A stretch of 15,547 nucleotides of DNA, from the IMG/VR virus record IMGVR_UViG_2648501392_000008; one strand, given 5' to 3'. A program made the translations under genes and the position numbers. Position 1 is the stretch's first letter, and each line of letters begins with the position of its first letter. The DNA is from a virus (taxonomy: Duplodnaviria; Heunggongvirae; Uroviricota; Caudoviricetes). The notes under the pieces were generated by a model. The model saw only the letters and a list, made by a program, of their open reading frames with translations, ran no database searches and was not told the origin of the DNA. Positions 1,706 to 13,525 of this stretch are shown one piece after another.

Positions 1706-2624
1706 TTAAGTTGTTGGATTTTGGCTTTTATCTTCTTTGTAAGAAAGAAGGTCACACATCAAATTAACTACCTTGCTGAATTGGAAAAGGTCAGCGCCAG
1801 TCTGATGACGCCACTGGAATGCTTTATCATCTTCATCATTAAATGTCTGAGATTGAGTATTGATGCGCGAAAAATGGAAATTTTCGGTAAGAATGAAGGT
1901 CACACCGCAACCGGATAACTCCATTTTATCAGCAGTGAAACTACTACTAAGACTATCGGCCAGTTCGCTTTGAATTGACTCATGCTCAGCTGAGTAGCGA
2001 ATAATTTCCTTTTGATCTGCGTAGCGTGATAGCTGAATATAATTTCCGACAGTGAATCCTTCAAATGCATTGGCTGCACCATTGATGTAGTTATTCAGGC
2101 GTGTAGTCAGTCCATTCTTGATATCACTGATGTTGATTGTTTCTGTTTTCACTGAACCGACAACCTTAATCAGCATTGCGCATACCATACCGGCTATTAT
2201 TTTATTGGTTGTGTTGATTACCAATAATTTCTCATCAGTGCTGTACAATGCAAGAATCAGCGTAGACTTAACAAATGCCTGTTTGGCATAGATCTACTCG
2301 TACGTTATCAATAATGGCCAGTCGTTCGGCACGCTTTAATTTATTCCCGGACATATTTTCGATTGTTTGGATTCGAGAATTAGCTTCTTTCATGACGACA
2401 TGTCGGGGAATTATTTTCTGATCATGACGGATTACCATTGCGTACCCACCAGATATCGGAGTTACCAGTTCACCAGTGACAGGATTCTCTACAAAAGAGG
2501 ACCGTGAAAATTCTGTTTCCCCGATTTCAGAATAAGGGAGTTCGAGAAGATGACCTTCAATAGCCTGTATACTAGGTAATGTTGCTCGGTACACAATTGC
2601 GTTACGAAATTTTGGTAATTTCAT
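1706..2624 (-). pseudogene. rdgC: rdgC-like recombination-associated gene interrupted by a frameshift near 2270-2295
   Basis: ATG at 2624 with GAGGAAAA SD gives MKLPKFRNAIVYRATLP...KIIPRHVVMKEA, resembling the RdgC N-terminus (MLWFKNLMVYRL...KILPSPVIKQAL, recalled). The frame stops at 2268, and the continuation (QAFVKS...LLVINTTNKIIAGMV..., ORF 1706..2248) is in another frame. The two pieces sum to about 300 aa, the RdgC length. Confidence 0.55.
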
Positions 2625-2953
2625 TCTATTTTCCTCTGCACAAGATATTAGTTTCTCCACAAAACAGAGAAGAACACCTGCGGTGGCAGCCGCCCGGGTG
2701 GATTGGGTTATGAGCCCGTCGTCCGGTGATGCTCTTCTCTGTTTTGTAAAAAGAGCGGTACCAGCCGGAAGCAAGTGTACAAACTGGTACCGCCAAAGCA
2801 GTGGCTGCTGTGGTGACCGATGCTGATCTCCGGCTTGCGGTTATTTCAGACTCTCACGGGCGTTTAATTGCCCCGCCGAACAGCTCTTTTCCGCAATAGC
2901 TGCAATGTCTTTCGCGCATCAGCCTGCGCATTCACCACAACTCTAAAAACAAA

Positions 2954-3067: not shown

Positions 3068-3721
3068 TCAAAAATCCATTATTACTTGTTTGACAAGACC
3101 AACTATTCTGCAGTTCTCACCGCATTCAATAGTTTTATAGTTAGGATTTAGTGGGACGAGATACCTGTTCGGCCAGTCCTCAACAAATTTTTTGAGTGTC
3201 GCTTCTTGCCCACCATTGATATGGGCAACAACGATTTTTCCGTTAATACACTCTGTATCAATAATATCTGGCTCTACGATAACGATAGAACCTTCTGGTA
3301 TCGATGGTGAGCCGAGGGGATTGGTCATTGAATCACCACGGACCCGTAGTGCAAATGCCATTTCTGATACAAGGGCGGTAGTATAAACCCACTCTTCAGC
3401 ATCTTCTTTCCTGACACCAGGCTCCGTCATTGTCCATGAACCCGCCTGAACCCACGAGATTAGGGGGACTTTTTTAACTGCGAATATTTCAGGTTTTAGA
3501 TTTATCTTTGGTTCAGGCGAGCCTTTTCCGCTAACAAGCCACAGAGGATCGCATTTAAGTGCGTTGGCTAGGGCTTGAAGGTTGGCTCCATTTGGTTGGT
3601 AGTCGTCCTTTTCCCATCCAGTAACCGTGACACGGTTCACACCAGTCAAATCAGCCAGTGCTTGTTGTGTCAGGTTCAGTTCTTTTCGCCTTTGGCGAAT
3701 ACGATCACTCATGTTCATCAT
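3068..3721 (-). CDS. cI: cI-like phage repressor (N-terminal XRE-type HTH, C-terminal S24/LexA-type autopeptidase)
   Basis: N-terminus RIRQRRKELNLTQQALADLTGVNRVTVTGWE is a classic HTH; C-terminus has GDSM (catalytic Ser) and a downstream Lys in LexA/S24 arrangement. Divergent from the cro-like gene with operator repeats between them. Confidence 0.85.
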   Translation of the reverse strand: MMNMSDRIRQRRKELNLTQQALADLTGVNRVTVTGWEKDDYQPNGANLQALANALKCDPLWLVSGKGSPEPKINLKPEIFAVKKVPLISWVQAGSWTMTEPGVRKEDAEEWVYTTALVSEMAFALRVRGDSMTNPLGSPSIPEGSIVIVEPDIIDTECINGKIVVAHINGGQEATLKKFVEDWPNRYLVPLNPNYKTIECGENCRIVGLVKQVIMDF

Positions 3722-3816: not shown

Positions 3817-4014
3817 ATGCGGAAATCCGACGTGATTAATTATTTCGGCGGAGTTTGTAAAATCGCCGAAGCCCTAGGTATTAAGCATCCGTCTGTTTCA
3901 GAGTGGCCTGAGATTATTCCTGAAGGCCGAGCGTACCAGTTAGAAAAAATTACTAACGGGAAACTGAAAGTTGACGTGTCTTTATATCAAAAGACTAACA
4001 GTGCTGCGGCATAA
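3817..4014 (+). CDS. Cro-like small DNA-binding protein (YdaS/Cro family)
   Basis: 65-aa ORF divergent from cI, GGGAGA SD 7 nt upstream of ATG; GGVCKIAEALGIKHPSVSEW is a YdaS/Cro-type HTH. Confidence 0.65.
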   Translation: MRKSDVINYFGGVCKIAEALGIKHPSVSEWPEIIPEGRAYQLEKITNGKLKVDVSLYQKTNSAAA

Positions 4015-4041: not shown

Positions 4042-4626
4042 GTGGGTAAAGAACCTGAATGGAAAGTTGATAAACAACCAGCATGGCTGGTGGCAGCAAT
4101 ACGAAGAACGATTGCTGATTTACCTCATGGCTATGAGGAAGCAGCAGAAATTCTTGGTTTGTATAAATCTGATGATATCACCCCAGCAAAAGATCAATTG
4201 CATAACAGACTGCGTAGCGGTGGGGATCAAATTTTTCCACTTGAGTGGGCCATGGTTTTACAGGATGCCAGTGGTACCAGGCATGTAACAGATGCAATAG
4301 CCCGTCGTAGTAATGGGGTGTTTGTGCCGCTGGTGGTCATTGATGACATTGACAATGGTGACATTAATCAGCGGCTGATGGAGTCAATAGAATGGATTGG
4401 CAAGCATTCCCAGTACTTACGCAAGGCAACTGCTGATGGAGTTATTGACCAGGCTGAGCGTGAGCAAATCGAAGAGAACAGCTACCAAGTAATGGCGAAG
4501 TGGCAGGAGCATTTAACACTGTTATTTCGTGTTTTTTGTGCGCCGGAAAAGAGTAACGCCCGCGAGTGTGCAGCTCCGGGCGTCGTGGCGTCGATTGCTT
4601 CTGGTTGTGGAGAAACTAACGCATGA
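4042..4626 (+). CDS. CII-like / YdaT-like prophage regulatory protein
   Basis: GTG start with GAGGA SD 7 nt upstream; position immediately after the Cro/YdaS-like gene; product loosely resembles YdaT / phage-186-CII-type proteins (recalled, not searched). Confidence 0.5.
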   Translation: MGKEPEWKVDKQPAWLVAAIRRTIADLPHGYEEAAEILGLYKSDDITPAKDQLHNRLRSGGDQIFPLEWAMVLQDASGTRHVTDAIARRSNGVFVPLVVIDDIDNGDINQRLMESIEWIGKHSQYLRKATADGVIDQAEREQIEENSYQVMAKWQEHLTLLFRVFCAPEKSNARECAAPGVVASIASGCGETNA

Positions 4627-5783
4627 ATAGTTTAACGGCAAATAACCGTTTGTCGCAACAGCTGGTGGTCAGCGTCGCTGAACACCTGTTGTTACGGCAT
4701 GAATGCAGATTACCAAATCACCTGGCTGTAAGTAACCACAGAGAACTTTACCTGACTGTGGGGGGCGAGTTGTGCAGGAACTTAACCGCTGGTTTCGTGA
4801 CGGAAGAGGGCTTTATGTCCATGTTATTCGTTGGGAGCCAGAAACACAGCGCGTTATCTATCTTCGCAAAGACTACCCGCATGAGTGCTTTAGTCCTTTG
4901 TGGAAATTCAGGCGTGATTTTGTTGAGTGTGAAGGACCACCAGCATATTGATTCTGCAATTCCGGGACGTTACACTGCTCAGGCACCTTATAAAGCGGGT
5001 GCCGGGATTGGCGTCCTGAAATTGTCAACGGCGATGTATGACGCGCCAGCGTCTTTTTTATCGTCCGCATTTGCTCACATCCAGATTATGGTGGGCTGGG
5101 CGGGGGCACCGAAAGGTGCGCCGGTCTCCGTTGACGCCGGTTACGCCAACCCCGTCCAGTTCACCACCAGTGAAATTGGCGTTTCCGGTGGTGGAAGTTT
5201 TTCACTGTCAACGGAGGCTGCCATCATGGCTACGATCCCAGCCCTCACTCAACCTGAAATCACCATTGACAACGGCCAGGCCGTTACCACTTCTTTGGCT
5301 GTTGCCAACTTCTTCTCCAAGCGTCACGACGATGTGCTGAAAAAGATCCGCACTCTGGATTGTTCCCCAGAGTTTTGTGCCCGCAATTTTGCGGAGACAT
5401 CGATTTCGGTAAATCAACCGAACGGTGGTACACGCAAGCTCCCTTGCTATCAAATCACACGAGACGGTTTTGCGTTTCTTGCTATGGGTTTCACGGGTAA
5501 ACGTGCTGCCCGGTTCAAAGAGGCATACATAAATGCCTTTAACCAGATGGAGAAACAGCTTTCAAAGCCCGCTGTACCGAGCGACGTTGCACATAACGCC
5601 AGCGTTCTCTGTTCCTACATTTCATCAATTCATCAGGTCTGGCTGCAGCAGCTTTATCCTATGTTGGCAAAAGCCGAATCTCCGCTGGCTGTTAGCTTAT
5701 ATGACTATATTAATGATGCTTCGGCGCTGGCCAGTCTCATAAATTTGTCGCTGAACCCTTCAGAGGTAAGGGGGCGCAAATGA
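4623..5783 (+). CDS. Rha-domain phage regulatory protein with a roughly 200-aa N-terminal region of unknown function
   Basis: ATGA overlap with the upstream stop. Residues about 210-310 (QAVTTSLAVANFFSKRHDDVLKKIRTL...ITRDGFAFLAMGFTGKRAARFKEAYINAFNQME) match the Rha/pRha domain. An internal ATG at 5226 with GGAGG upstream could also initiate a standalone Rha protein. Confidence 0.55.
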   Translation: MNSLTANNRLSQQLVVSVAEHLLLRHECRLPNHLAVSNHRELYLTVGGELCRNLTAGFVTEEGFMSMLFVGSQKHSALSIFAKTTRMSALVLCGNSGVILLSVKDHQHIDSAIPGRYTAQAPYKAGAGIGVLKLSTAMYDAPASFLSSAFAHIQIMVGWAGAPKGAPVSVDAGYANPVQFTTSEIGVSGGGSFSLSTEAAIMATIPALTQPEITIDNGQAVTTSLAVANFFSKRHDDVLKKIRTLDCSPEFCARNFAETSISVNQPNGGTRKLPCYQITRDGFAFLAMGFTGKRAARFKEAYINAFNQMEKQLSKPAVPSDVAHNASVLCSYISSIHQVWLQQLYPMLAKAESPLAVSLYDYINDASALASLINLSLNPSEVRGRK

Positions 5784-6004: not shown

Positions 6005-6300
6005 ACTGTTTTCAGTTTGTGTGCGGATGTGCTTTCGATAACCCGATTCAGCGCCTAATTATGTTGCGTGTTTTGATGTCGGGTTCTTCAGACGGTGAAG
6101 GCGAGAGAGTTATTGATCATCAGGTGCTTGCTGATTTCTGCTGTTGTTCTAAGCAAGCGATATTCAGGGAAACCCTGGCACTGGAAAGAGCTGGTTATCT
6201 TCATATCCGAAAAATTGCAACGCTTACTATTGATGCAAAAGCCAGACTACAACCTGCGCGTGGCTACACAATTCTCATGCTGCGGAAGGAGGTTGTATGA
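6001..6300 (+). CDS. Hypothetical winged-helix-like DNA-binding protein (99 aa), possibly replication-associated
   Basis: GTG start overlapping the upstream stop (GTGA) with GGGAGGTG SD; LADFCCCSKQAIFRETLALERAGYLHIRK looks like a wHTH recognition region. Assignment is weak. Confidence 0.4.
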   Translation: MNCFQFVCGCAFDNPIQRLIMLRVLMSGSSDGEGERVIDHQVLADFCCCSKQAIFRETLALERAGYLHIRKIATLTIDAKARLQPARGYTILMLRKEVV

Positions 6301-7304
6301 GCCGTTACGCCCCCACACCGGAAGTTATGGCTATTGGTCAAATTAATATTTCCGGCAATGTTACACCTGCGACCTGGTGGAAATATATTCGACTACCCAG
6401 TGGGCGTCCGGATGCGACGGCTATCGCTCTGCTTTCAGAGATCGTTTACTGGTACCGCCCGACAGAGGTCAGGGATGAGCACACCGGAGCGTTGCTGGGA
6501 TATCGCAAGCGTTTTCAGGGCGACAAACTGCAAAGAAGCTACCAGGCGTTTGCTGAGCAGTTTGGTTTCGGGAAAAGGGAAACCGCAGATGCGCTGAAGC
6601 GTCTGCGCGATGCAGGGTTTATTACTCTGGATTTACGCACGGTGGAAATGCTCGATGGGGTGAAATGCAGCAATATTTTGTTTGTCGGGATCAACCCACA
6701 GGCAATTGCGGCCATCACCACACCTTCTTCTGTTTCGCCAGAAAGTAACAGCAATAATGCAATCAGCGATACAGCTATTACGTTAAAACGGAACACCCCC
6801 CGACGTCATAACGGAACAGGGGATACGCCGAATGTTGATACAAATACAGAGATTACTACAGAGATTACTACAGAGATTACTACAGAGATTACAACGGAGA
6901 CTAAAAACACTATTGGCGCATCCGCTGACGCGTCTGCACCAGCGCGTTCTGCCAGACAGGAATATTCACCGGAATTTGAACAGGCCTGGCAGGAATATCC
7001 CAAACGTGCTGGTGGTAATTCAAAATCCGCCGCTTTTAAAGCCTGGAAAGCCCGAATCAGGGAAGGTGTGACACCCGAAACCATGCTCGACGGTGTGAAA
7101 CGCTATGCCGCCTGGGTGCGTGTCTCTGGAAATACCGGTACCCAGTTCGTGAAGCAGGCGTCGACGTTCTTTGGTCCGGATCGTCATTTCGAAGAATCCT
7201 GGGAAGTTCCTGCGGTATCTGCAGCCAGACGCGAGGACCCGTACTTCAAAGCCAGTTACGACAACGTGGACTACAGCCAGATCCCGGAAGGATTCAGGGG
7301 GTGA
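6297..7304 (+). CDS. Phage replication initiation protein (lambda O-like / replisome organiser) with origin iterons inside the gene
   Basis: GGAAGGAGG SD before ATG 6297; N-terminal wHTH-like region; C-terminal EFEQAWQEYPKRAGGNSKSAAFKAWKARI motif typical of enterobacterial prophage replication proteins; 12-bp iterons within the coding sequence. Confidence 0.7.
   Translation: MSRYAPTPEVMAIGQINISGNVTPATWWKYIRLPSGRPDATAIALLSEIVYWYRPTEVRDEHTGALLGYRKRFQGDKLQRSYQAFAEQFGFGKRETADALKRLRDAGFITLDLRTVEMLDGVKCSNILFVGINPQAIAAITTPSSVSPESNSNNAISDTAITLKRNTPRRHNGTGDTPNVDTNTEITTEITTEITTEITTETKNTIGASADASAPARSARQEYSPEFEQAWQEYPKRAGGNSKSAAFKAWKARIREGVTPETMLDGVKRYAAWVRVSGNTGTQFVKQASTFFGPDRHFEESWEVPAVSAARREDPYFKASYDNVDYSQIPEGFRG
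6846..6893. repeat. Iteron array: 4 tandem copies of 12-bp acagagattact (candidate phage replication origin)
   Basis: Direct tandem repeats at 6846-6857, 6858-6869, 6870-6881 and 6882-6893 (last copy 1 mismatch), encoding TEIT repeats in the O-like protein. Confidence 0.7.
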
Positions 7305-7306
7305 TC

Positions 7307-7399
7307 ATGAGTCTTTTGAATGAAGTTCAGAAATTCATTGAAGCCCATCCGGGGTGTACTTCCGGAGACATTGCGGATGCTTTTTACGTGGGGGCTTAA
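7307..7399 (+). CDS. Possible small ORF (30 aa) translationally coupled between the replication gene and the Dam gene
   Basis: ATG at 7307 with GGGGG 6 nt upstream; stop TAA overlaps the Dam ATG (TAATG). Too short for the ORF track; no homology evidence. Confidence 0.3.
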   Translation: MSLLNEVQKFIEAHPGCTSGDIADAFYVGA

Positions 7400-8052
7400 T
7401 GAGTAATAAATATTGCCAGGCGCTGGTAGAACTGCGGAACAAACCAGCCCATGAACTGAAGGAAGTGGGCGATCAGTGGCGCACGCCGGACAACATTTTC
7501 TGGGGAATTAACACCTTGTTTGGTCCGTTTGTTCTGGATCTGTTCACTGACGGTGATAACGCCAAATGTGCCGCGTATTACACGGCGGAAGACAACGCGC
7601 TGGCGCATGACTGGTCAGAACGTCTTGCGGAGCTTAAAGGTGCTGCCTTTGGTAATCCCCCATACAGCCGCGCCAGTCAGCATGAGGGGCAATACATCAC
7701 CGGCATGCGTTACATCATGAAACATGCCAGTGCCATGCGTGATAAGGGCGGGCGCTATGTTTTCCTGATCAAAGCGGCCACCAGCGAAGTGTGGTGGCCG
7801 GAAGATGCAGATCATATTGCTTTTATTCGCGGGCGTATTGGTTTTGAACTGCCAGCCTGGTTTATCCCGAAAGACGAAAAGCAGGTGCCAACAGGTGCTT
7901 TCTTCGCTGGTGCTATTGCTGTTTTCGACAAGACCTGGAAGGGAGCGGCAATCAGCTACATCGGGCGCGATGAACTTGAGGCATGTGGTGAGGCGTTTCT
8001 GGCGCAGGTTCGCCAGCAGGCGGAAAAACTGGTCAGGGAGATGGCGGCATGA
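7399..8052 (+). CDS. Phage Dam-type N6-adenine DNA methyltransferase
   Basis: WRTPDNIF...LDLFTDGDNAKCAAYYTAEDNALAHDW...AFGNPPYS: the NPPY catalytic motif and flanking pattern are characteristic of the phage Dam family. ATG 7399 is preferred to the GTG at 7354 because of the SD. Confidence 0.85.
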   Translation: MSNKYCQALVELRNKPAHELKEVGDQWRTPDNIFWGINTLFGPFVLDLFTDGDNAKCAAYYTAEDNALAHDWSERLAELKGAAFGNPPYSRASQHEGQYITGMRYIMKHASAMRDKGGRYVFLIKAATSEVWWPEDADHIAFIRGRIGFELPAWFIPKDEKQVPTGAFFAGAIAVFDKTWKGAAISYIGRDELEACGEAFLAQVRQQAEKLVREMAA

Positions 8053-8375
8053 CGACATTAACTCAATGCCAGCAGCAGGTGCTGGATATGCTGATTTCTT
8101 ATCAGAAAGAACGTGGCTTCCCGCCAACCAATCAGGAGGTGGCAACCATGCTGGGATACCGTTCGGTGAATGCAGCGGTGGAGCATCTTCGCGCACTGGA
8201 GAAAAAAGGTGTCATCACGATAAAGCGTGGCGTGGCCCGGGGTATCACTCTTCATACCGCGGTGAAGGACGACGACAGCGAGGCGGTCGGGATTATCCGC
8301 GCCCTGCTTGCCGGTGAGGCAAACGCCAGGCTGCGTGCAGCCCACTGGTTACATGAGAGGGGCCTGAAAGTATGA
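8049..8375 (+). CDS. LexA N-terminal DNA-binding-domain protein lacking the S24 peptidase domain
   Basis: MTTLTQCQQQVLDMLISYQKERGFPPTNQEVATMLGYRSVNAAVEHLRALEKKGVITIKRGVARGI aligns by eye with the LexA N-terminus (LTARQQEVFDLI...[36 protein letters not shown], recalled); only 108 aa, with no Ser/Lys peptidase region. Confidence 0.7.
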   Translation: MTTLTQCQQQVLDMLISYQKERGFPPTNQEVATMLGYRSVNAAVEHLRALEKKGVITIKRGVARGITLHTAVKDDDSEAVGIIRALLAGEANARLRAAHWLHERGLKV

Positions 8376-8767
8376 AGCTAATACTGCCTTTTCCGCCCAG
8401 CGTGAACACGTACTGGCGACACCCCAACAAAGGGGCGTTTGCTGGTAAGAGCCTGATAAGCGCGGCGGGGCGAAAATTCCAGAGCGCGGCGTGTGCAGCA
8501 ATAGTTGAGCAGTTACGTCGTCTGCCGAAACCAACGTCGGCACCTGCTTCAGTGGAGATCGTGTTGTTTCCTCCGGATAACCGGATCCGCGATCTGGACA
8601 ACTATAACAAGGCGCTGTTTGACGCCCTGACCCACGCGGGTGTGTGGGAAGACGACAGACAGGTGAAAAGAATGCTGGTGGAGTGGGGACCGGTTATCCC
8701 GGAGGGGAAGGTCGAGATCACTATCAGTAAGTACGAAAAAGCGAGTTGCAAATTAGCAACTCGGTAA
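8372..8767 (+). CDS. rusA: RusA Holliday-junction resolvase
   Basis: LPFPPSVNTYWRH...RDLDNYNKALFDALTHAGVWEDDRQV matches RusA conserved blocks; ATGA coupling with the upstream gene. Confidence 0.85.
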   Translation: MKLILPFPPSVNTYWRHPNKGAFAGKSLISAAGRKFQSAACAAIVEQLRRLPKPTSAPASVEIVLFPPDNRIRDLDNYNKALFDALTHAGVWEDDRQVKRMLVEWGPVIPEGKVEITISKYEKASCKLATR

Positions 8768-8929
8768 CGGAATTGAGCAACACCCTAAATTTGGGTATTA
8801 CCTCGTTAAAGATACTGTATTTATGAACAGTGTATCCTTGATAACTATTAAAAATCGCAGTAAGTTCATCCTGCATCAACGAAAAGGGAGTGCAGTCCCG
8901 CTCGTGGATAAAAATTTGTGGAGAAACCA

Positions 8930-9745
8930 ATGAATCAGTTGCTTGTAATTGATGGCGTTTCTGTGCGCCAGTACTTCGAATCTAACTACTGTCTTAACGA
9001 CCTTCAGAAAGCTGCTCTTCTTGCCGCTGGTGAGAATCGCTCCTCCCGTTCGCTGGAAGTTCACGAGTTTATGCGTCGTCCTGAAACGAAGGCTCTTGTG
9101 GAATTATTGGAAGAAGAAACTACGGGAGATTCCCGTAGTATTCCTGTCATCACCATTCAGGGGCGCAATGGTGGGACGTATGTCTGTAAAGAGCTGGTCT
9201 ATGCATATGCAATGTGGATCAGCCCGGCATTCAGCTTAAAAGTGATACGTACTTTTGATGCGCTTCATAATTCATCACCAGAAGAAACCACATCCGACAA
9301 AATTAAATCCGGGGTCATTCTGCTTGAATCAGCAGCAAAGACTCTAAATCTGTCAAACTCCTCGAAACTTGGTGCATACCAGAAATTATCAAAGGTAGCT
9401 GGTCTTCCTGAACTTATGCCGATCTATGCCATTGATGCACCTGCTGATGCGCCAGATGGTTCAAGCCGCCCTACGCTGTCGCTGAGTGCACTGCTGAAGC
9501 AGTATGGTATCCGCCTGACGGCTAATCAGGCATATCACCAGATGGCGAAGCTGGGGATCGTTGAACAACGCGAACGATACAGCCGTACCGCGATTAACAA
9601 CATCAAAAAATTCTGGTCGCTGACAGCGAAAGGTTGCATGTTCGGCAAGAACATCACCAGTCCCGCAAATCCGCGCGAGACGCAGCCGCATTTCTTCGAA
9701 TCCCGATTCCCTGAGCTGTTAAAGCTGCTCGATACCGTTCATTGA
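8930..9745 (+). CDS. KilA-N domain protein (antirepressor-like)
   Basis: ATG 8930 with GGAG SD; the N-terminal region (IDGVSVRQYF...IQGRNGGTYVCKELVYAYAMWISPAFSLKVIRTF) is a KilA-N fold signature; the C-terminal half resembles antirepressor C-terminal regions. Confidence 0.7.
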   Translation: MNQLLVIDGVSVRQYFESNYCLNDLQKAALLAAGENRSSRSLEVHEFMRRPETKALVELLEEETTGDSRSIPVITIQGRNGGTYVCKELVYAYAMWISPAFSLKVIRTFDALHNSSPEETTSDKIKSGVILLESAAKTLNLSNSSKLGAYQKLSKVAGLPELMPIYAIDAPADAPDGSSRPTLSLSALLKQYGIRLTANQAYHQMAKLGIVEQRERYSRTAINNIKKFWSLTAKGCMFGKNITSPANPRETQPHFFESRFPELLKLLDTVH

Positions 9746-9746
9746 G

Positions 9747-10742
9747 GTGACCGTGAGAGCACTACTGACCCCTGAAATTGCCCCGCGTATGGGGATCGTA
9801 TTGTTCAGACCCGGTTCAGAGCTGATGCCCCTGTTTATGCAGGGGCGTGTCCTGCTGGAGCCTGAGCCGGAACGTTATTCATCTTTTGCCAGTGGTGCCG
9901 TTCCGGCAGCATCACAACCGCTGGCGGATGATCCTGCCGTTCGGGTCGTGTTCCGCAATGAGGCAGTGATCCGTCGTGCTGGTGGCGTGGAATGTCTTGA
10001 AAGCTGGTTACTTCGTGAAAAAGGTTGCCAGTGGCCTCATTCCGACTGGCACAGCGAGAACATGACCACAATGCGACACGCGCCGGGCGCAATCCGTCTG
10101 TGCTGGCACTGCGATAACCAGCTGCGCGATCAGTTCACGGAACGGCTGGAATCAATGGCAACGGATAACTGTGCCCGCTGGGTGTTGTCTGTTGTGCGTC
10201 GGGATCTCGGTTTTGATGACAGTCACGTTGTGACAATGCCGGAACTGTGCTGGTGGCTGGTTCGTAATGATCTGGCGGATGCCTTACCGGAAAGTGCAGC
10301 CCGTAAGGCACTGAGATTACCGAAGCCTGTTGTGCCGTCTGTCACCCGGGAGAGTGACCTTGTGCCTTCGGTTCCGGCCACCAGCATCATCCAGAATAAA
10401 GCGAAAAAGGTGCTGGCGCTGAAAGTGGATCCGGAGTCGCCGGAGTCTTTTATGTTACGCCCAAAACGTCGCCGCTGGGTTAACGAAAAGTACACGCGCT
10501 GGGTTAAGACGCAGCCGTGTGCATGTTGTGGAAAGCCTGCTGATGATCCCCACCACCTGATAGGCCACGGTCAGGGGGGAATGGGTACAAAAGCGCATGA
10601 CCTCTTCGTGCTGCCTTTGTGCAGAAAGCATCACGACGAGCTGCATGCGGATACCGTGGCATTTGAAGAGAAGTATGGCTCCCAGCTGGAGCTGATATTT
10701 CGTTTTATCGATCGTGCGCTGGCAATAGGCGTGCTGGCCTGA
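9747..10742 (+). CDS. DUF968-family prophage protein (YdfU-like) with a C-terminal Cys/His HNH-like motif
   Basis: C-terminal CACCGKPADDPHHLIGHGQGG...LCRKHHDELH; position between KilA-N/RusA and Q is typical. Start uncertain (GTG 9747 or GTG 9753 with a GAGGTG SD). Confidence 0.6.
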   Translation: MTVRALLTPEIAPRMGIVLFRPGSELMPLFMQGRVLLEPEPERYSSFASGAVPAASQPLADDPAVRVVFRNEAVIRRAGGVECLESWLLREKGCQWPHSDWHSENMTTMRHAPGAIRLCWHCDNQLRDQFTERLESMATDNCARWVLSVVRRDLGFDDSHVVTMPELCWWLVRNDLADALPESAARKALRLPKPVVPSVTRESDLVPSVPATSIIQNKAKKVLALKVDPESPESFMLRPKRRRWVNEKYTRWVKTQPCACCGKPADDPHHLIGHGQGGMGTKAHDLFVLPLCRKHHDELHADTVAFEEKYGSQLELIFRFIDRALAIGVLA

Positions 10743-10759
10743 TTTTGTGGAGAAAGTTG

Positions 10760-11131
10760 ATGCGTGATATTCAAATGGTTCTTGAACGTTGGGGGGCATG
10801 GGTGGCAAATAATCACGAGGATGTGGAATGGTCATCTGTTGCTGCAGGTTTTAAGGGATTAATTCCTTCGAAAGTAAAATCCCGCCCGCAATGTAGCGAT
10901 GACGATGGCCTGATCATTAGCTCTGCGATGACAGTTCTTAAGAAAAAGGAACCGTATCAATACGAATTACTGGAAATGTATTATGTGTATGGGGTTACAT
11001 TACGGGTGTTGGGGGTAAAACTGGGGATATCACTTAATCAGGTTGTTATCAGACTGCAGAAAGCTGAAGGGTTTATTGACGGTTGTCTGGCAATGTTGGG
11101 GGTATCTTTAGAAATTGATTGTTACATATAG
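10760..11131 (+). CDS. Late-gene antiterminator Q (QuuD/phage-21 type)
   Basis: ATG 10760 with GGAGAAAG SD; the N-terminus MRDIQMVLERWGAWVANNHEDVEWSS matches the recalled N-terminus of DLP12 QuuD. Confidence 0.8.
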   Translation: MRDIQMVLERWGAWVANNHEDVEWSSVAAGFKGLIPSKVKSRPQCSDDDGLIISSAMTVLKKKEPYQYELLEMYYVYGVTLRVLGVKLGISLNQVVIRLQKAEGFIDGCLAMLGVSLEIDCYI

Positions 11132-12076: not shown

Positions 12077-12298
12077 ATGTTAACCAGAAGGGAAAAAGAC
12101 ATGCTAAAACAGCAAGATATGACCGAAACCGCCAGAGTGGTGTTTAATGAATTGAGCGTCACCGAACCGGCGACAGTCGGGGAGATTGCGCAGAATACTT
12201 ACCTTTCACGCGAACGCTGCCAGTTAATACTGACCCAGCTGGTTATGGCGGGTCTGGCAGACTATCAGTTCGGTTGTTACAGACGCCTTCCGCAGTGA
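12077..12298 (+). CDS. Small putative winged-helix/HTH DNA-binding protein (73 aa; alternative start at 12101)
   Basis: ORF ending inside an intrinsic terminator; ATVGEIAQNTYLSRERCQLILTQLVMAGLADY resembles a wHTH recognition region. Best SD (AGAAGGGA) precedes the ATG at 12101. Confidence 0.45.
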   Translation: MLTRREKDMLKQQDMTETARVVFNELSVTEPATVGEIAQNTYLSRERCQLILTQLVMAGLADYQFGCYRRLPQ

Positions 12299-12308
12299 AG
12301 GCTTTTTT
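12285..12308 (+). terminator. Rho-independent terminator overlapping the stop codon of the small HTH gene
   Basis: gccttc-cgcagt-gaaggc followed by tttttt; the TGA stop lies at the loop/stem junction. Confidence 0.65.
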
Positions 12309-12448
12309 ATTTGTGGTAAATGGGCGGTTGGTGGGTGTTAGGGGCACCCACCAGCCATCTGCTCATGCGTTGGGTTCACAAGCAAACCTCAGGCCCACTG
12401 CTTTGCGCAAAAGCAGAATGAGCCTATCAGAGACAGGCTTAATGATCC

Positions 12449-13525
12449 ATGCTTAATACTGTAAAAATATCCAGTTGTGAGTTAATCAACGCCGACTGCC
12501 TGGAATTTATCCGGTCGTTACCCGAAAATTCTGTTGACCTGATAGTCACGGACCCGCCGTACTTTAAAGTGAAGCCTGAGGGCTGGGATAACCAGTGGAA
12601 GGGCGACGATGATTACCTGAAGTGGCTGGACCAGTGTCTGGCGCAGTTCTGGCGGGTGCTGAAACCTGCCGGAAGTCTTTACCTGTTCTGTGGTCATCGC
12701 CTGGCATCTGATATCGAAATCATGATGCGTGAACGCTTCAGTGTGCTGAACCATATTATCTGGGCGAAGCCGTCCGGACGCTGGAACGGGTGCAACAAGG
12801 AAAGCCTGCGGGCGTATTTTCCGGCCACAGAACGCATTCTGTTCGCGGAACATTATCAGGGGCCGTATCGTCCGAAAGATGATGGCGATGAGGCGAAGGG
12901 CAGGGCACTGAAACAGCATGTGATGGCCCCGCTGATTTCTTACTTTCGTGATGCGCGTGCTGCTCTTGGGATAACGGCAAAACAGATTGCAGATGCCACA
13001 GGAAAGAAAAACATGGTGTCGCACTGGTTCAGTGCCAGTCAGTGGCAGCTACCGAACGAAAGCGATTATCTGAAATTACAGTCGCTGTTTGCCCGGGTGG
13101 CAGAAGAGAAACATCAGCGGGGAGAACTGGAAAAGTCCCATTACCAACTGGTCAGCACATACAGTGAGCTGAACCGGCAGTATATGGAACTGCTGAGTGA
13201 ATATAAAAATTTGCGGCGGTATTTCGGTGTGACGGTGCAGGTGCCGTACACCGATGTGTGGACGCATAAACCGGTGCAGTACTATCCAGGGAAACATCCG
13301 TGCGAAAAACCGGCAGAAATGCTGCGGCAGATAATCTGCGCGAGCAGTCGTCCGGGTGACCTGGTGGCGGATTTTTTCATGGGTTCTGGCTCAACCATAA
13401 AAGCAGCTATGGCGCTCGGGCGTCGTGCAACTGGTGTTGAACTGGAGGCAGAACGTTTTGCGCAGACCGTTAAGGAGATTAGTCACATCCTTACATGCTC
13501 AATTGATGACGGGAAGGATGGATAA
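12449..13525 (+). CDS. Beta-class N6-adenine/N4-cytosine DNA methyltransferase (YhdJ-like), apparently an orphan
   Basis: SVDLIVTDPPYF (motif IV) at the N-terminus and DLVADFFMGSGSTIKAAMALGRRATGVE (motif I, FxGxG) near the C-terminus, i.e. the beta-class permuted order as in E. coli YhdJ. No restriction endonuclease gene is adjacent. Confidence 0.85.
   Translation: MLNTVKISSCELINADCLEFIRSLPENSVDLIVTDPPYFKVKPEGWDNQWKGDDDYLKWLDQCLAQFWRVLKPAGSLYLFCGHRLASDIEIMMRERFSVLNHIIWAKPSGRWNGCNKESLRAYFPATERILFAEHYQGPYRPKDDGDEAKGRALKQHVMAPLISYFRDARAALGITAKQIADATGKKNMVSHWFSASQWQLPNESDYLKLQSLFARVAEEKHQRGELEKSHYQLVSTYSELNRQYMELLSEYKNLRRYFGVTVQVPYTDVWTHKPVQYYPGKHPCEKPAEMLRQIICASSRPGDLVADFFMGSGSTIKAAMALGRRATGVELEAERFAQTVKEISHILTCSIDDGKDG

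What the first reader, a model, noticed from the sequence alone, without database searches (positions are those of the whole stretch)
8049..8375. LexA DNA-binding domain without the autopeptidase domain
The protein matches the LexA N-terminal winged-helix domain along its length but stops at 108 aa, before the RecA-stimulated cleavage site and the Ser/Lys dyad. Such a protein could bind SOS boxes without being cleavable, giving an SOS-insensitive repressor or a competitor that rewires host or prophage SOS responses. It sits in the replication-to-nin operon, coupled between Dam and RusA.
Basis: partly seen in the sequence, partly recalled or inferred. Interest (0 to 1): 0.55.

Follow-up and report, generated by a model that had tools for sequence, protein, structure and literature searches.

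The report
Prophage LexA look-alike without protease domain
A lambdoid prophage gene encodes the DNA-binding end of the bacterial DNA-damage (SOS) repressor LexA without its self-cleaving domain; it is real, strongly conserved and present in about 41% of complete E. coli genomes, including Shiga-toxin phages, but its function has not been tested.

Summary
The ORF at 8049-8375 (+) is a real 108-aa gene. Its start overlaps the dam stop codon and its stop overlaps the rusA start codon, in the early-right operon of a lambdoid prophage. Residues 1-70 are specifically LexA-like: Pfam LexA_DNA_bind E 3e-19, and 1.0 A rmsd with 50% identity to LexA in its DNA complex. Four of LexA's five base-contact residues are kept (S39, N41, A42, E45; E44 is Val), and so is the wing RGI. 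There is no S24 protease domain.

Two details of the finding are wrong. The LexA match does not run the whole length, because residues 75-103 form a conserved two-helix tail. The protein also does not stop before the cleavage site: homology runs through the hinge, and Ala88-Gly89 aligns with LexA Ala84-Gly85.

The family (PHROG 362) sits in the nin region of prophages of several enterobacterial genera, under strong purifying selection (dN/dS about 0.05). It is routinely annotated "LexA family transcriptional regulator". I found no functional study.

My best reading (confidence 0.4) is a RecA-insensitive, tail-dimerised binder of LexA-type boxes made during lytic growth. The window has two strong LexA boxes as candidate targets. 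The main rival is a regulator with diverged specificity, like phage GIL01 gp6. I rate it a new variant of a known kind, of moderate interest.

The parts
8049..8375 (+). Gene for the 108-aa LexA-derived protein (PHROG 362). The stop codon is included.
   Evidence: ORF; Pfam PF01726 E 2.9e-19; PHROG 362 E 4e-59 over its full length; dN/dS about 0.05.
8035..8040 (+). Shine-Dalgarno AGGGAG, 8 nt upstream of the ATG and inside the end of dam.
   Evidence: Read from the sequence.
8049..8258 (+). Residues 1-70: LexA-type winged helix-turn-helix (helices 6-22, 28-35, 40-52; wing strands 56-58 and 66-68).
   Evidence: AF2 model with pLDDT 79-89 in this part; Foldseek hit to 3jso at rmsd 1.0 A and 50% identity.
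8166..8204 (+). Recognition helix, residues 40-52 (VNAAVEHLRALEK). N41, A42 and E45 match LexA, and S39 just before the helix matches too. E44 is replaced by V.
   Evidence: Alignments; column counts; contact residues as listed in PMC3091678.
8271..8357 (+). Residues 75-103: family-conserved two-helix tail (helices 75-88 and 93-103; A97 invariant, L101 nearly invariant). It is the inferred dimerisation module.
   Evidence: AF2 pLDDT 87-89 after a low-confidence linker, with overall pTM 0.57; conservation; no PDB sequence match.
8310..8318 (+). Ala88-Gly89-Glu90 codons, which align with the LexA cleavage site Ala84-Gly85-Glu86. Probably a relic.
   Evidence: BLASTP; hhalign. G89 occurs in only 20 of 32 family members. 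The model predicts a helix end here.
7354..8052 (+). Upstream dam (phage N6-adenine methyltransferase). Its stop codon overlaps the start of the LexA-like gene. The likely true start is the ATG at 7399.
   Evidence: Pfam Dam E 7e-45; sequence.
8372..8767 (+). Downstream rusA. Its start codon overlaps the stop of the LexA-like gene.
   Evidence: Pfam RusA; found directly after the gene in 72 of 75 related loci.
8813..8832 (.). Strong LexA box TACTGTATTTATGAACAGTG between rusA and kilA-N. It is a candidate target on the prophage (inferred).
   Evidence: 16 of 20 matches to the consensus with intact CTGT/ACAG; 0 of 1000 shuffles gave any such box.
12457..12476 (.). Second strong LexA box TACTGTAAAAATATCCAGTT, in codons 3-9 of the N6_N4 methylase gene. 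It is a candidate target (inferred).
   Evidence: Exact box in 2 related loci and a close variant in 18, at the equivalent downstream offset; read at the methylase start in 2 of them.
9747..10742 (+). DUF968/HNH gene, the most constant downstream neighbour of the family.
   Evidence: Pfam DUF968 E 1.5e-81; present downstream in 75 of 75 loci and in all six genus-level contexts.

Best explanation
The gene encodes a LexA-derived DNA-binding protein that RecA cannot switch off by self-cleavage.

Anatomy. It consists of LexA residues 1 to about 89 (winged helix-turn-helix, hinge, and a relic of the cleavage strand) joined to a short extra helix. The region after the wHTH has been remodelled into a two-helix tail. 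The S24 protease/dimerisation domain is gone.

Timing. The gene is translated from the early-right operon, with overlapping stop and start codons at the dam and rusA junctions. It is therefore made after cI inactivation or on infection, not in the quiescent lysogen.

Action. I infer that the tail replaces the lost LexA dimer interface. The protein would then bind as a dimer to CTGT-type half-sites, that is LexA boxes or a close variant. The candidate sites are the two strong boxes on this prophage (8813-8832 and 12457-12476) and host SOS operators. Binding would restore LexA-type repression at the time when host LexA has been destroyed.

Shown: gene reality, domain anatomy, LexA-specific homology, retained contact residues, absence of the protease, operon position, purifying selection, and the presence of LexA boxes. 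Inferred: dimerisation through the tail, box specificity, a repressive outcome, and timing.
For: - LexA-specific homology: Pfam 69 bits, and PDB sequence hits are LexA only. BLASTP gives 43% identity over 91 aa, E 1e-21. hhalign gives probability 99.7. The model superposes on DNA-bound LexA at 1.0 A.
- Contact residues S39, N41, A42 and E45, plus K53 and R64-G65-I66, are kept. S39, N41, K53 and RGI are invariant across 32 family members.
- No S24 domain.
- The tail is conserved, predicted with confidence, and separated from the wHTH by a low-confidence linker.
- LexA DNA-binding domains repress only when fused partners interact (PMC12369361).
- No sigma-70-like promoter was found in 7200-9200, which fits expression from PR only.
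- Two LexA boxes lie in the window, against none in 1000 shuffles.
- In Klebsiella the homologue sits in an operon dinI - orf - lexA-like - DUF968 - Q-like. A LexA box overlaps the -10 of its promoter, which links the family to SOS control.
- dN/dS is about 0.05.
Against: - There are no binding or expression data.
- E44 is replaced in every family member. Position 45 is E in only 19 of 32, and is L, I, G, A or V in the Klebsiella, some Salmonella and Citrobacter subfamilies. If host LexA boxes were the common target, these positions should be fixed.
- The Cronobacter, Atlantibacter, Kosakonia and Citrobacter loci have no LexA box within 5-6 kb.
- The box-bearing rusA/kilA-N spacer is present in only 185 of 5426 genomes, against 2233 with the gene.
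- A different dimer geometry could change the half-site spacing.
- Dimerisation is inferred only; no multimer model could be run.
- GIL01 gp6 shows that truncated LexA homologues can change both target and sign of regulation (PMC6182141).
Confidence: 0.4

Rival explanations
1. It is a phage-specific transcription factor whose operator has diverged from the LexA box, as in GIL01 gp6. It would repress or activate a phage promoter and would have no general effect on the host SOS regulon.
For: - Recognition-helix positions 44 and 45 vary between subfamilies, and E44 is never kept.
- There is no consistent LexA box near divergent relatives.
- Precedent: gp6 binds GaCACAnnTGTGaC and activates the late promoter P3 (PMC6182141).
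- Standalone LexA-DBD proteins are common in viral proteomes.
Against: - The E. coli-type protein keeps S39, N41, A42 and E45.
- No alternative conserved palindrome was found near the gene.
- The window has almost no intergenic space in this operon apart from the LexA-box spacer.
- Late control here is already supplied by Q.
Confidence: 0.3
2. It is a DNA-targeting or regulatory accessory of the neighbouring DNA-metabolism genes (DUF968/HNH nuclease, RusA or the methyltransferase), not a transcription factor.
For: - DUF968 is downstream in 75 of 75 loci and in every genus-level context, even where RusA or Dam is absent or replaced.
- One natural fusion joins a LexA-like NTD to a DUF968 HNH domain (P0159).
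- The gene overlaps rusA by its stop/start codons.
Against: - The fusion is a singleton seen on one contig, probably a deletion in a decaying prophage.
- The locus sample is dominated by close relatives.
- The co-occurrence may simply reflect the conserved nin-region gene order upstream of Q.
Confidence: 0.08
3. It is a decoy or trans-substrate for the SOS proteolysis machinery. The retained Ala-Gly region docks into the active sites of RecA*-activated LexA, cI or UmuD. It would either be cleaved in trans, making it SOS-sensitive after all, or compete with their self-cleavage.
For: - Ala88-Gly89-Glu90 aligns with LexA Ala84-Gly85-Glu86 in both BLASTP and hhalign.
- Intermolecular cleavage by LexA and cI is documented (Kim and Little 1993, known to me only as a title in the reference list of PMC8951638).
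Against: - G89 is present in only 20 of 32 members and A88 in 20 of 32.
- The region is predicted helical, not the strand-loop of LexA.
- Alignment confidence is lowest in this stretch.
Confidence: 0.05
4. It is a non-functional remnant of a captured lexA gene.
For: It has the appearance of a truncated gene.
Against: - dN/dS is about 0.05 across 46 alleles (1-3 nonsynonymous against 10-16 synonymous differences among the 25 most divergent alleles).
- Full-length homologues at 40-57% identity occur in at least six genera, and their tail is conserved.
- The gene is present in isolated, viable phages: SfV, SfII, SfIV, mEp460, cdtI and Stx2 phages.
Confidence: 0.02

Closest known systems
Escherichia coli LexA (SOS repressor; PDB 3jso, 1lea)
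   Same: The N-terminal wHTH shows 43% identity over 91 aa and 50% over the 68 aligned columns of the domain, with 1.0 A rmsd. Contact residues S39, N41, A42 and E45 and the wing RGI are kept. An Ala-Gly sits at the aligned cleavage position.
   Different: There is no S24 protease/dimerisation domain (Ser119/Lys156). E44 is Val and P40 is Val. The hinge and cleavage region is remodelled into a two-helix tail. The gene is encoded in a phage early operon rather than being autoregulated by its own SOS box.
GIL01 (Bacillus tectivirus) gp6, a truncated LexA homologue that activates the late promoter P3 (PMC6182141)
   Same: It is a phage-encoded LexA DNA-binding domain without the protease domain, expressed from the early operon.
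   Different: gp6 is 66 aa and has no tail. BLASTP finds no similarity to the window protein, so the two were captured independently. gp6 recognises a non-LexA palindrome and activates transcription. The window protein keeps most LexA contact residues.
Engineered LexA(1-87) DNA-binding-domain fusions (LexA-based bacterial two-hybrid; PMC12369361)
   Same: The architecture is a LexA DBD plus a heterologous interaction module. In those systems the module is what allows operator binding and repression.
   Different: The window protein is a natural protein, and the oligomeric state of its tail is untested.
Phage and plasmid SOS modulators that act on LexA or RecA (GIL01 gp7, DinI)
   Same: The likely purpose is the same: a mobile element adjusting the host SOS response. 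A Klebsiella homologue is co-operonic with dinI.
   Different: gp7 binds LexA, and DinI, from general knowledge, acts on RecA. The window protein would act directly on DNA.

Membership tests
Canonical LexA repressor (TIGR00498 equivalog) | N-terminal LexA-type winged helix-turn-helix | tested here: met
   PF01726 at 69 bits against a cut-off of 23.7; Foldseek hit to 3jso at rmsd 1.0 A.
Canonical LexA repressor (TIGR00498 equivalog) | C-terminal S24 peptidase domain with the Ser/Lys dyad, which is also the dimer interface | tested here: not met
   No Peptidase_S24 hit. TIGR00498 scores 70.7 bits against a cut-off of 110.95 and aligns only to model positions 1-91 of 203. The protein ends at residue 108.
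Canonical LexA repressor (TIGR00498 equivalog) | Ala-Gly cleavage site in the hinge that is cleaved on RecA* stimulation | tested here: inconclusive
   Ala88-Gly89 aligns with Ala84-Gly85. However, it is not conserved in the family, it is predicted helical, and there is no catalytic domain in cis.
Canonical LexA repressor (TIGR00498 equivalog) | Binds CTGT-N8-ACAG SOS boxes | not testable with these tools
   Only indirect evidence: four of five base-contact residues are kept, and candidate boxes lie at 8813 and 12457.
PHROG 362 (phage 'transcriptional repressor', LexA-NTD plus tail) | Full-length profile match | tested here: met
   E 4.2e-59, residues 1-108 against profile positions 1-106 of 106. 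The Klebsiella homologue matches the same profile.
PHROG 362 (phage 'transcriptional repressor', LexA-NTD plus tail) | nin-region context in lambdoid prophages (after replication and methylase genes, before DUF968 and Q) | tested here: met
   Window; Cronobacter, Salmonella, Atlantibacter, Kosakonia and Citrobacter loci; 75 of 75 loci have DUF968 downstream.
GIL01 gp6-type truncated LexA activators | Sequence relatedness to gp6 | tested here: not met
   No BLASTP alignment with E <= 100.
GIL01 gp6-type truncated LexA activators | Binds a non-LexA palindrome overlapping a -35 element and activates a late promoter | not testable with these tools
   No such motif was identified near the gene. Late control in this phage is supplied by Q.

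The most novel reading that the evidence does not exclude
An abundant prophage-encoded LexA surrogate that cannot cleave itself. It is present in about 41% of complete E. coli genomes and in Stx2a, Stx2c and Cdt phages. Once its own phage is induced, it would re-silence LexA-controlled genes. These would include host SOS functions, colicin and toxin modules, and the LexA-controlled antirepressors of rival prophages. This would give the induced phage priority in polylysogens and would shape SOS-dependent toxin release. A further twist is possible: the retained Ala-Gly might let RecA*-activated LexA or cI cleave it in trans.
Probability: 0.2. Interest if true: 0.7.

Novelty: new variant of a known kind. 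Interest (0 to 1): 0.45.

Why it matters
SOS induction controls prophage induction, Shiga-toxin release, mutagenesis and persistence. A very common phage gene that could restore LexA-type repression independently of RecA would add a layer of control over the E. coli SOS network that has not been examined, and a possible mechanism for competition between prophages. It is directly testable with a few reporter and EMSA experiments. If the protein instead has its own operator, it would be a second, independently evolved example of a captured LexA domain given a new role by a phage. It would also give the missing functional annotation for a gene now labelled 'LexA family transcriptional regulator', and sometimes wrongly 'SOS-response repressor and protease LexA', in thousands of genomes.

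Tried and rejected
- Literature: nine full-text searches and look-ups in the Stx-phage and SfIV papers found no functional work on this enterobacterial family. Only GIL01 gp6 and gp7 turned up. The Zhang 2010 (LexA-DNA structure) and Mo 2014 papers were not held.
- Defence-system membership: PADLOC gave nothing meaningful.
- Alternative operators: I counted CTGT/ACAG pairs at spacings 0-20 and looked for short inverted repeats around the gene and in the Klebsiella promoter region. Only the canonical spacing-8 boxes stood out, together with an unrelated 27-bp palindrome at 7316-7342.
- General linkage of the gene to LexA boxes: rejected as a rule. 48 of 86 fetched loci carry one of six recurrent strong boxes, but they lie at different places, and eight loci from four other genera have none.
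- Rosetta-stone link to DUF968: the fusion protein is a singleton.
- Pseudogene or remnant: rejected by dN/dS.
- Relationship to gp6: no sequence similarity.
- The tail alone has no match to any PDB sequence.
- The afdb50 fold library was unavailable.

Full report
**Observation.** The ORF at 8049-8375 (+) exists and encodes 108 aa. An AGGGAG Shine-Dalgarno lies 8 nt upstream. The ATG overlaps the stop of the Dam methyltransferase ORF (ATGA, 8049-8052). Its own stop overlaps the ATG of rusA (ATGA, 8372-8375).

The window is the early region of a lambdoid prophage:

| Feature | Coordinates |
|---|---|
| S24-type cI | 3068-3721 (-) |
| cro | 3817-4014 |
| cII-like | 4042-4626 |
| Rha/Ash-type ORF | 4623-5783 |
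| replication gene | 6297-7304 |
| dam | 7354-8052 |
| LexA-like gene | 8049-8375 |
| rusA | 8372-8767 |
| kilA-N gene | 8930-9745 |
| DUF968/HNH | 9747-10742 |
| Q | 10745-11131 |
| N6_N4 methylase | 12449-13525 |

**Is it LexA-specific or a generic wHTH?** It is LexA-specific.
- Pfam LexA_DNA_bind scores 69 bits (E 2.9e-19, residues 1-65). The next HTH models score 19 bits or less, below their cut-offs.
- Every PDB sequence hit is a LexA.
- BLASTP against E. coli LexA gives 43% identity over 91 aa, E 1e-21.
- An AF2 model built on 32 family members (pLDDT 83.6) superposes on LexA in its DNA complex (3jso) at 1.0 A over 68 columns, with 50% identity.
- Of the five DNA-contacting residues of LexA helix 3 listed in PMC3091678 (S39, N41, A42, E44, E45), the protein keeps S39, N41, A42 and E45. 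E44 is Val. K53 and the wing R64-G65-I66 are also kept.

**What is missing and what is extra.** There is no Peptidase_S24 domain, and the TIGR00498 lexA model is matched only over positions 1-91 and below its cut-off. Two details of the finding need correcting.
- First, the LexA match does not cover the whole protein. After a low-confidence linker (residues 69-74), residues 75-88 and 93-103 form two confidently predicted helices. These are conserved across the family: A97 is invariant, L101 is nearly invariant, and positions 80, 83, 86, 87 and 100 are mostly hydrophobic. The tail has no match to any PDB sequence.
- Second, the protein does not end before the LexA cleavage site. BLASTP and profile-profile alignment both carry the homology through the hinge, so that Ala88-Gly89-Glu90 lies opposite LexA Ala84-Gly85-Glu86.

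The gene therefore looks like lexA cut just after the cleavage strand. That region has since been remodelled into part of a helical hairpin. Gly89 is present in only 20 of 32 family members, so I treat the Ala-Gly as a relic rather than a working cleavage site.

**Family and distribution.**
- The protein matches PHROG 362 ('transcriptional repressor') over its full length (E 4e-59).
- The DNA is found in 2233 of 5426 complete E. coli genomes (2855 copies), annotated 'LexA family transcriptional regulator'.
- It is found in 61 phage records, including SfV (orf42, 'unknown'), SfII, SfIV, mEp460, phage cdtI, and Stx2a, Stx2c and Stx2k phages. Several of these records misannotate it as 'SOS-response repressor and protease LexA'.
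- Exhaustive HMMER and profile searches find full-length relatives of 105-130 aa at 40-57% identity. They occur in Salmonella, Citrobacter, Cronobacter, Klebsiella/Raoultella, Atlantibacter, Kosakonia and other genera.
- Their context is constant: replication genes, a PerC-like gene, a DNA methyltransferase of varying family, the LexA-like gene, rusA, a KilA-N or Rha/ANT gene, DUF968, then the Q antiterminator.
- DUF968 follows in 75 of 75 loci with enough downstream sequence, and rusA in 72 of 75.
- Purifying selection is strong. Among 46 E. coli-type alleles, pooled dN/dS is about 0.05.

The gene is functional and already annotated. However, nine full-text searches found no experimental work on it.

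**Surroundings relevant to function.** The window holds two LexA boxes of high quality, each with 16 of 20 matches to TACTGTATATATATACAGTA and intact CTG...CAG. None of 1000 dinucleotide-preserving shuffles produced even one such box.
- Box 1 (8813-8832) lies in a 150-bp spacer between rusA and kilA-N, 438 bp downstream of the gene. The spacer is an insertion found in only 185 genomes and is absent from SfV, where rusA and kilA-N are 20 bp apart. The box overlaps or abuts plausible -35 hexamers for a rightward promoter that would drive kilA-N, DUF968 and Q.
- Box 2 (12457-12476) occupies codons 3-9 of the late-region methylase. The exact box or a close variant recurs at the equivalent downstream offset in 20 related loci (exact in 2, variant in 18); I read it at the methylase start in SfV and one other locus, and in the two Salmonella loci it lies about 9 nt into the annotated N6_N4 methylase gene.

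In Klebsiella prophages the homologue lies in an operon dinI, phrog_1813, lexA-like, phrog_1212, DUF968, Q-like. The promoter of that operon (TTGAAC-N17-TATACT) has a perfect LexA box over its -10. These observations tie the family to SOS-controlled circuitry. They are not universal, though: the Cronobacter, Atlantibacter, Kosakonia and Citrobacter loci have no box within 5-6 kb.

**Mechanism.**
- Established knowledge: an isolated LexA DNA-binding domain represses only when its fused partners interact. This is the basis of LexA two-hybrid systems (PMC12369361).
- Inference: the conserved, largely hydrophobic two-helix tail is tethered by a flexible linker. Its position relative to the wHTH is uncertain in the model (pTM 0.57 despite high local pLDDT). 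It is the obvious candidate to replace the lost dimer interface.
- No sigma-70-like promoter is seen in 7200-9200. The gene should therefore be expressed with the PR operon, after cI cleavage or on infection.
- Together these points give the best-supported model: a LexA surrogate, insensitive to RecA, that occupies LexA-type boxes on the phage and possibly the host when host LexA has been cleaved. I give it 0.4.

**Main rival.** The main rival (0.3) is a regulator with diverged specificity.
- Position 44 is never Glu in the family.
- Position 45 is E in 19 of 32 members, D in 7, and hydrophobic or small in the Klebsiella, one Salmonella and the Citrobacter subfamilies. All of these hosts use the same LexA box.
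- GIL01 gp6, the only characterised phage LexA truncation, binds a different palindrome and activates a late promoter (PMC6182141).

gp6 itself is unrelated in sequence (no BLASTP hit) and lacks the tail, so the two represent independent captures of the LexA domain.

**Minor rivals.** These are an accessory role with DUF968 or RusA, supported only by synteny and a singleton fusion protein; a decoy or trans-substrate role for the retained Ala-Gly region; and a dead remnant, rejected by dN/dS.

**Verdict.** At the level of annotation the feature is already known. Functionally it is an uncharacterised variant of a known kind (phage-encoded truncated LexA homologues). It differs from gp6 in three ways: independent origin, a conserved C-terminal module, and retention of most LexA base-contact residues. 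Its very high prevalence in E. coli and its presence in toxin-converting phages make it worth a small set of decisive experiments. Interest is moderate.

Noticed in passing
window 8768-8929 (box at 8813-8832): A 150-bp spacer between rusA and kilA-N carries a near-consensus LexA box. It is present in only 185 of 5426 E. coli genomes and absent from SfV. Possible rightward promoters are TGAACA (8824-8829)/N17/TATTAA (8847-8852), or TTGATA (8838-8843)/N17/TAAGTT (8861-8866). Either would put kilA-N, DUF968 and Q under direct LexA control, a possible cI-independent route to Q expression.
   Followed up: partly
window 8733-8815, minus strand: A candidate small RNA of about 80 nt, antisense to the 3' end of rusA. 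It would start next to the LexA box and has two hairpins, the second followed by a U-run. MFE is -27.3 kcal/mol with z = -5.2 against shuffles. There is no Rfam match and no convincing -35/-10.
   Followed up: partly
window 12457-12476: A second strong LexA box (TACTGTAAAAATATCCAGTT) lies inside codons 3-9 of the N6_N4 DNA methylase gene, just after a terminator at 12285-12310. The exact box recurs in 2 related loci and the variant TACTGTAAAAATAAACAGTG in 18, at the equivalent downstream offset. It was read at the methylase start in SfV and one other locus, and lies about 9 nt into the annotated methylase gene in two Salmonella loci.
   Followed up: partly
window 4726-4741 and 4983-5171: Rfam isrK (4983-5059) and C4 antisense RNA (5084-5171) lie inside the ORF annotated by Pfam as Ash plus Rha (4623-5783). 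This resembles a P1 immI / Gifsy-type antirepressor control module. A perfect CTGT-N8-ACAG (CTGTAAGTAACCACAG) sits about 250 bp upstream.
   Followed up: no
L003:1088-1107, L004:2444-2463 (and 19 more related loci): LexA boxes matching 17-18 of 20 consensus positions (TACTGTTTTTAC/TATACAGTA) lie 3-5 kb upstream of the LexA-like gene. By my own reading of the reverse strand, not checked with an ORF or domain tool, they fall in the linker-coding part of a different cI repressor allele.
   Followed up: no
L084:4385-7243 (Klebsiella prophage; also L085, L086): An operon dinI, phrog_1813, LexA-like (130 aa, with an N-terminal extension), phrog_1212, DUF968, Q-like antiterminator. It lies behind a TTGAAC-N17-TATACT promoter whose -10 is overlapped by a perfect LexA box. 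This implies LexA-controlled Q expression.
   Followed up: partly
protein P0159 (ENA, single contig): A singleton 240-aa fusion of a LexA-like NTD to the HNH C-terminal domain of DUF968 (68% identical to the C-terminal 114 residues of the window's DUF968 protein). It is probably a deletion product, but it joins the two most constantly linked genes.
   Followed up: yes
proteins P0131, P0156 and other hits with two matched stretches: Proteins of about 140-350 aa carry two LexA-type wHTH domains in tandem in one chain. They may be single-chain pseudo-dimers.
   Followed up: no
window 1706-2248 and 2268-2774, minus strand: An RdgC-like gene is split into two adjacent ORFs, matching Pfam RdgC positions 130-279 and 3-113. 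It is probably a frameshifted or interrupted gene.
   Followed up: no
window 6806-7084 and 7316-7342: The replication protein contains the repeated motif TEIT TEIT TEIT TEIT TE, so the coding DNA holds tandem 12-bp repeats that may be origin iterons. A 27-bp imperfect palindrome (TTGAATGAAGTTC G GAAATTCATTGAA) lies between the replication gene and dam, where relatives carry a PerC/YfdN gene.
   Followed up: no
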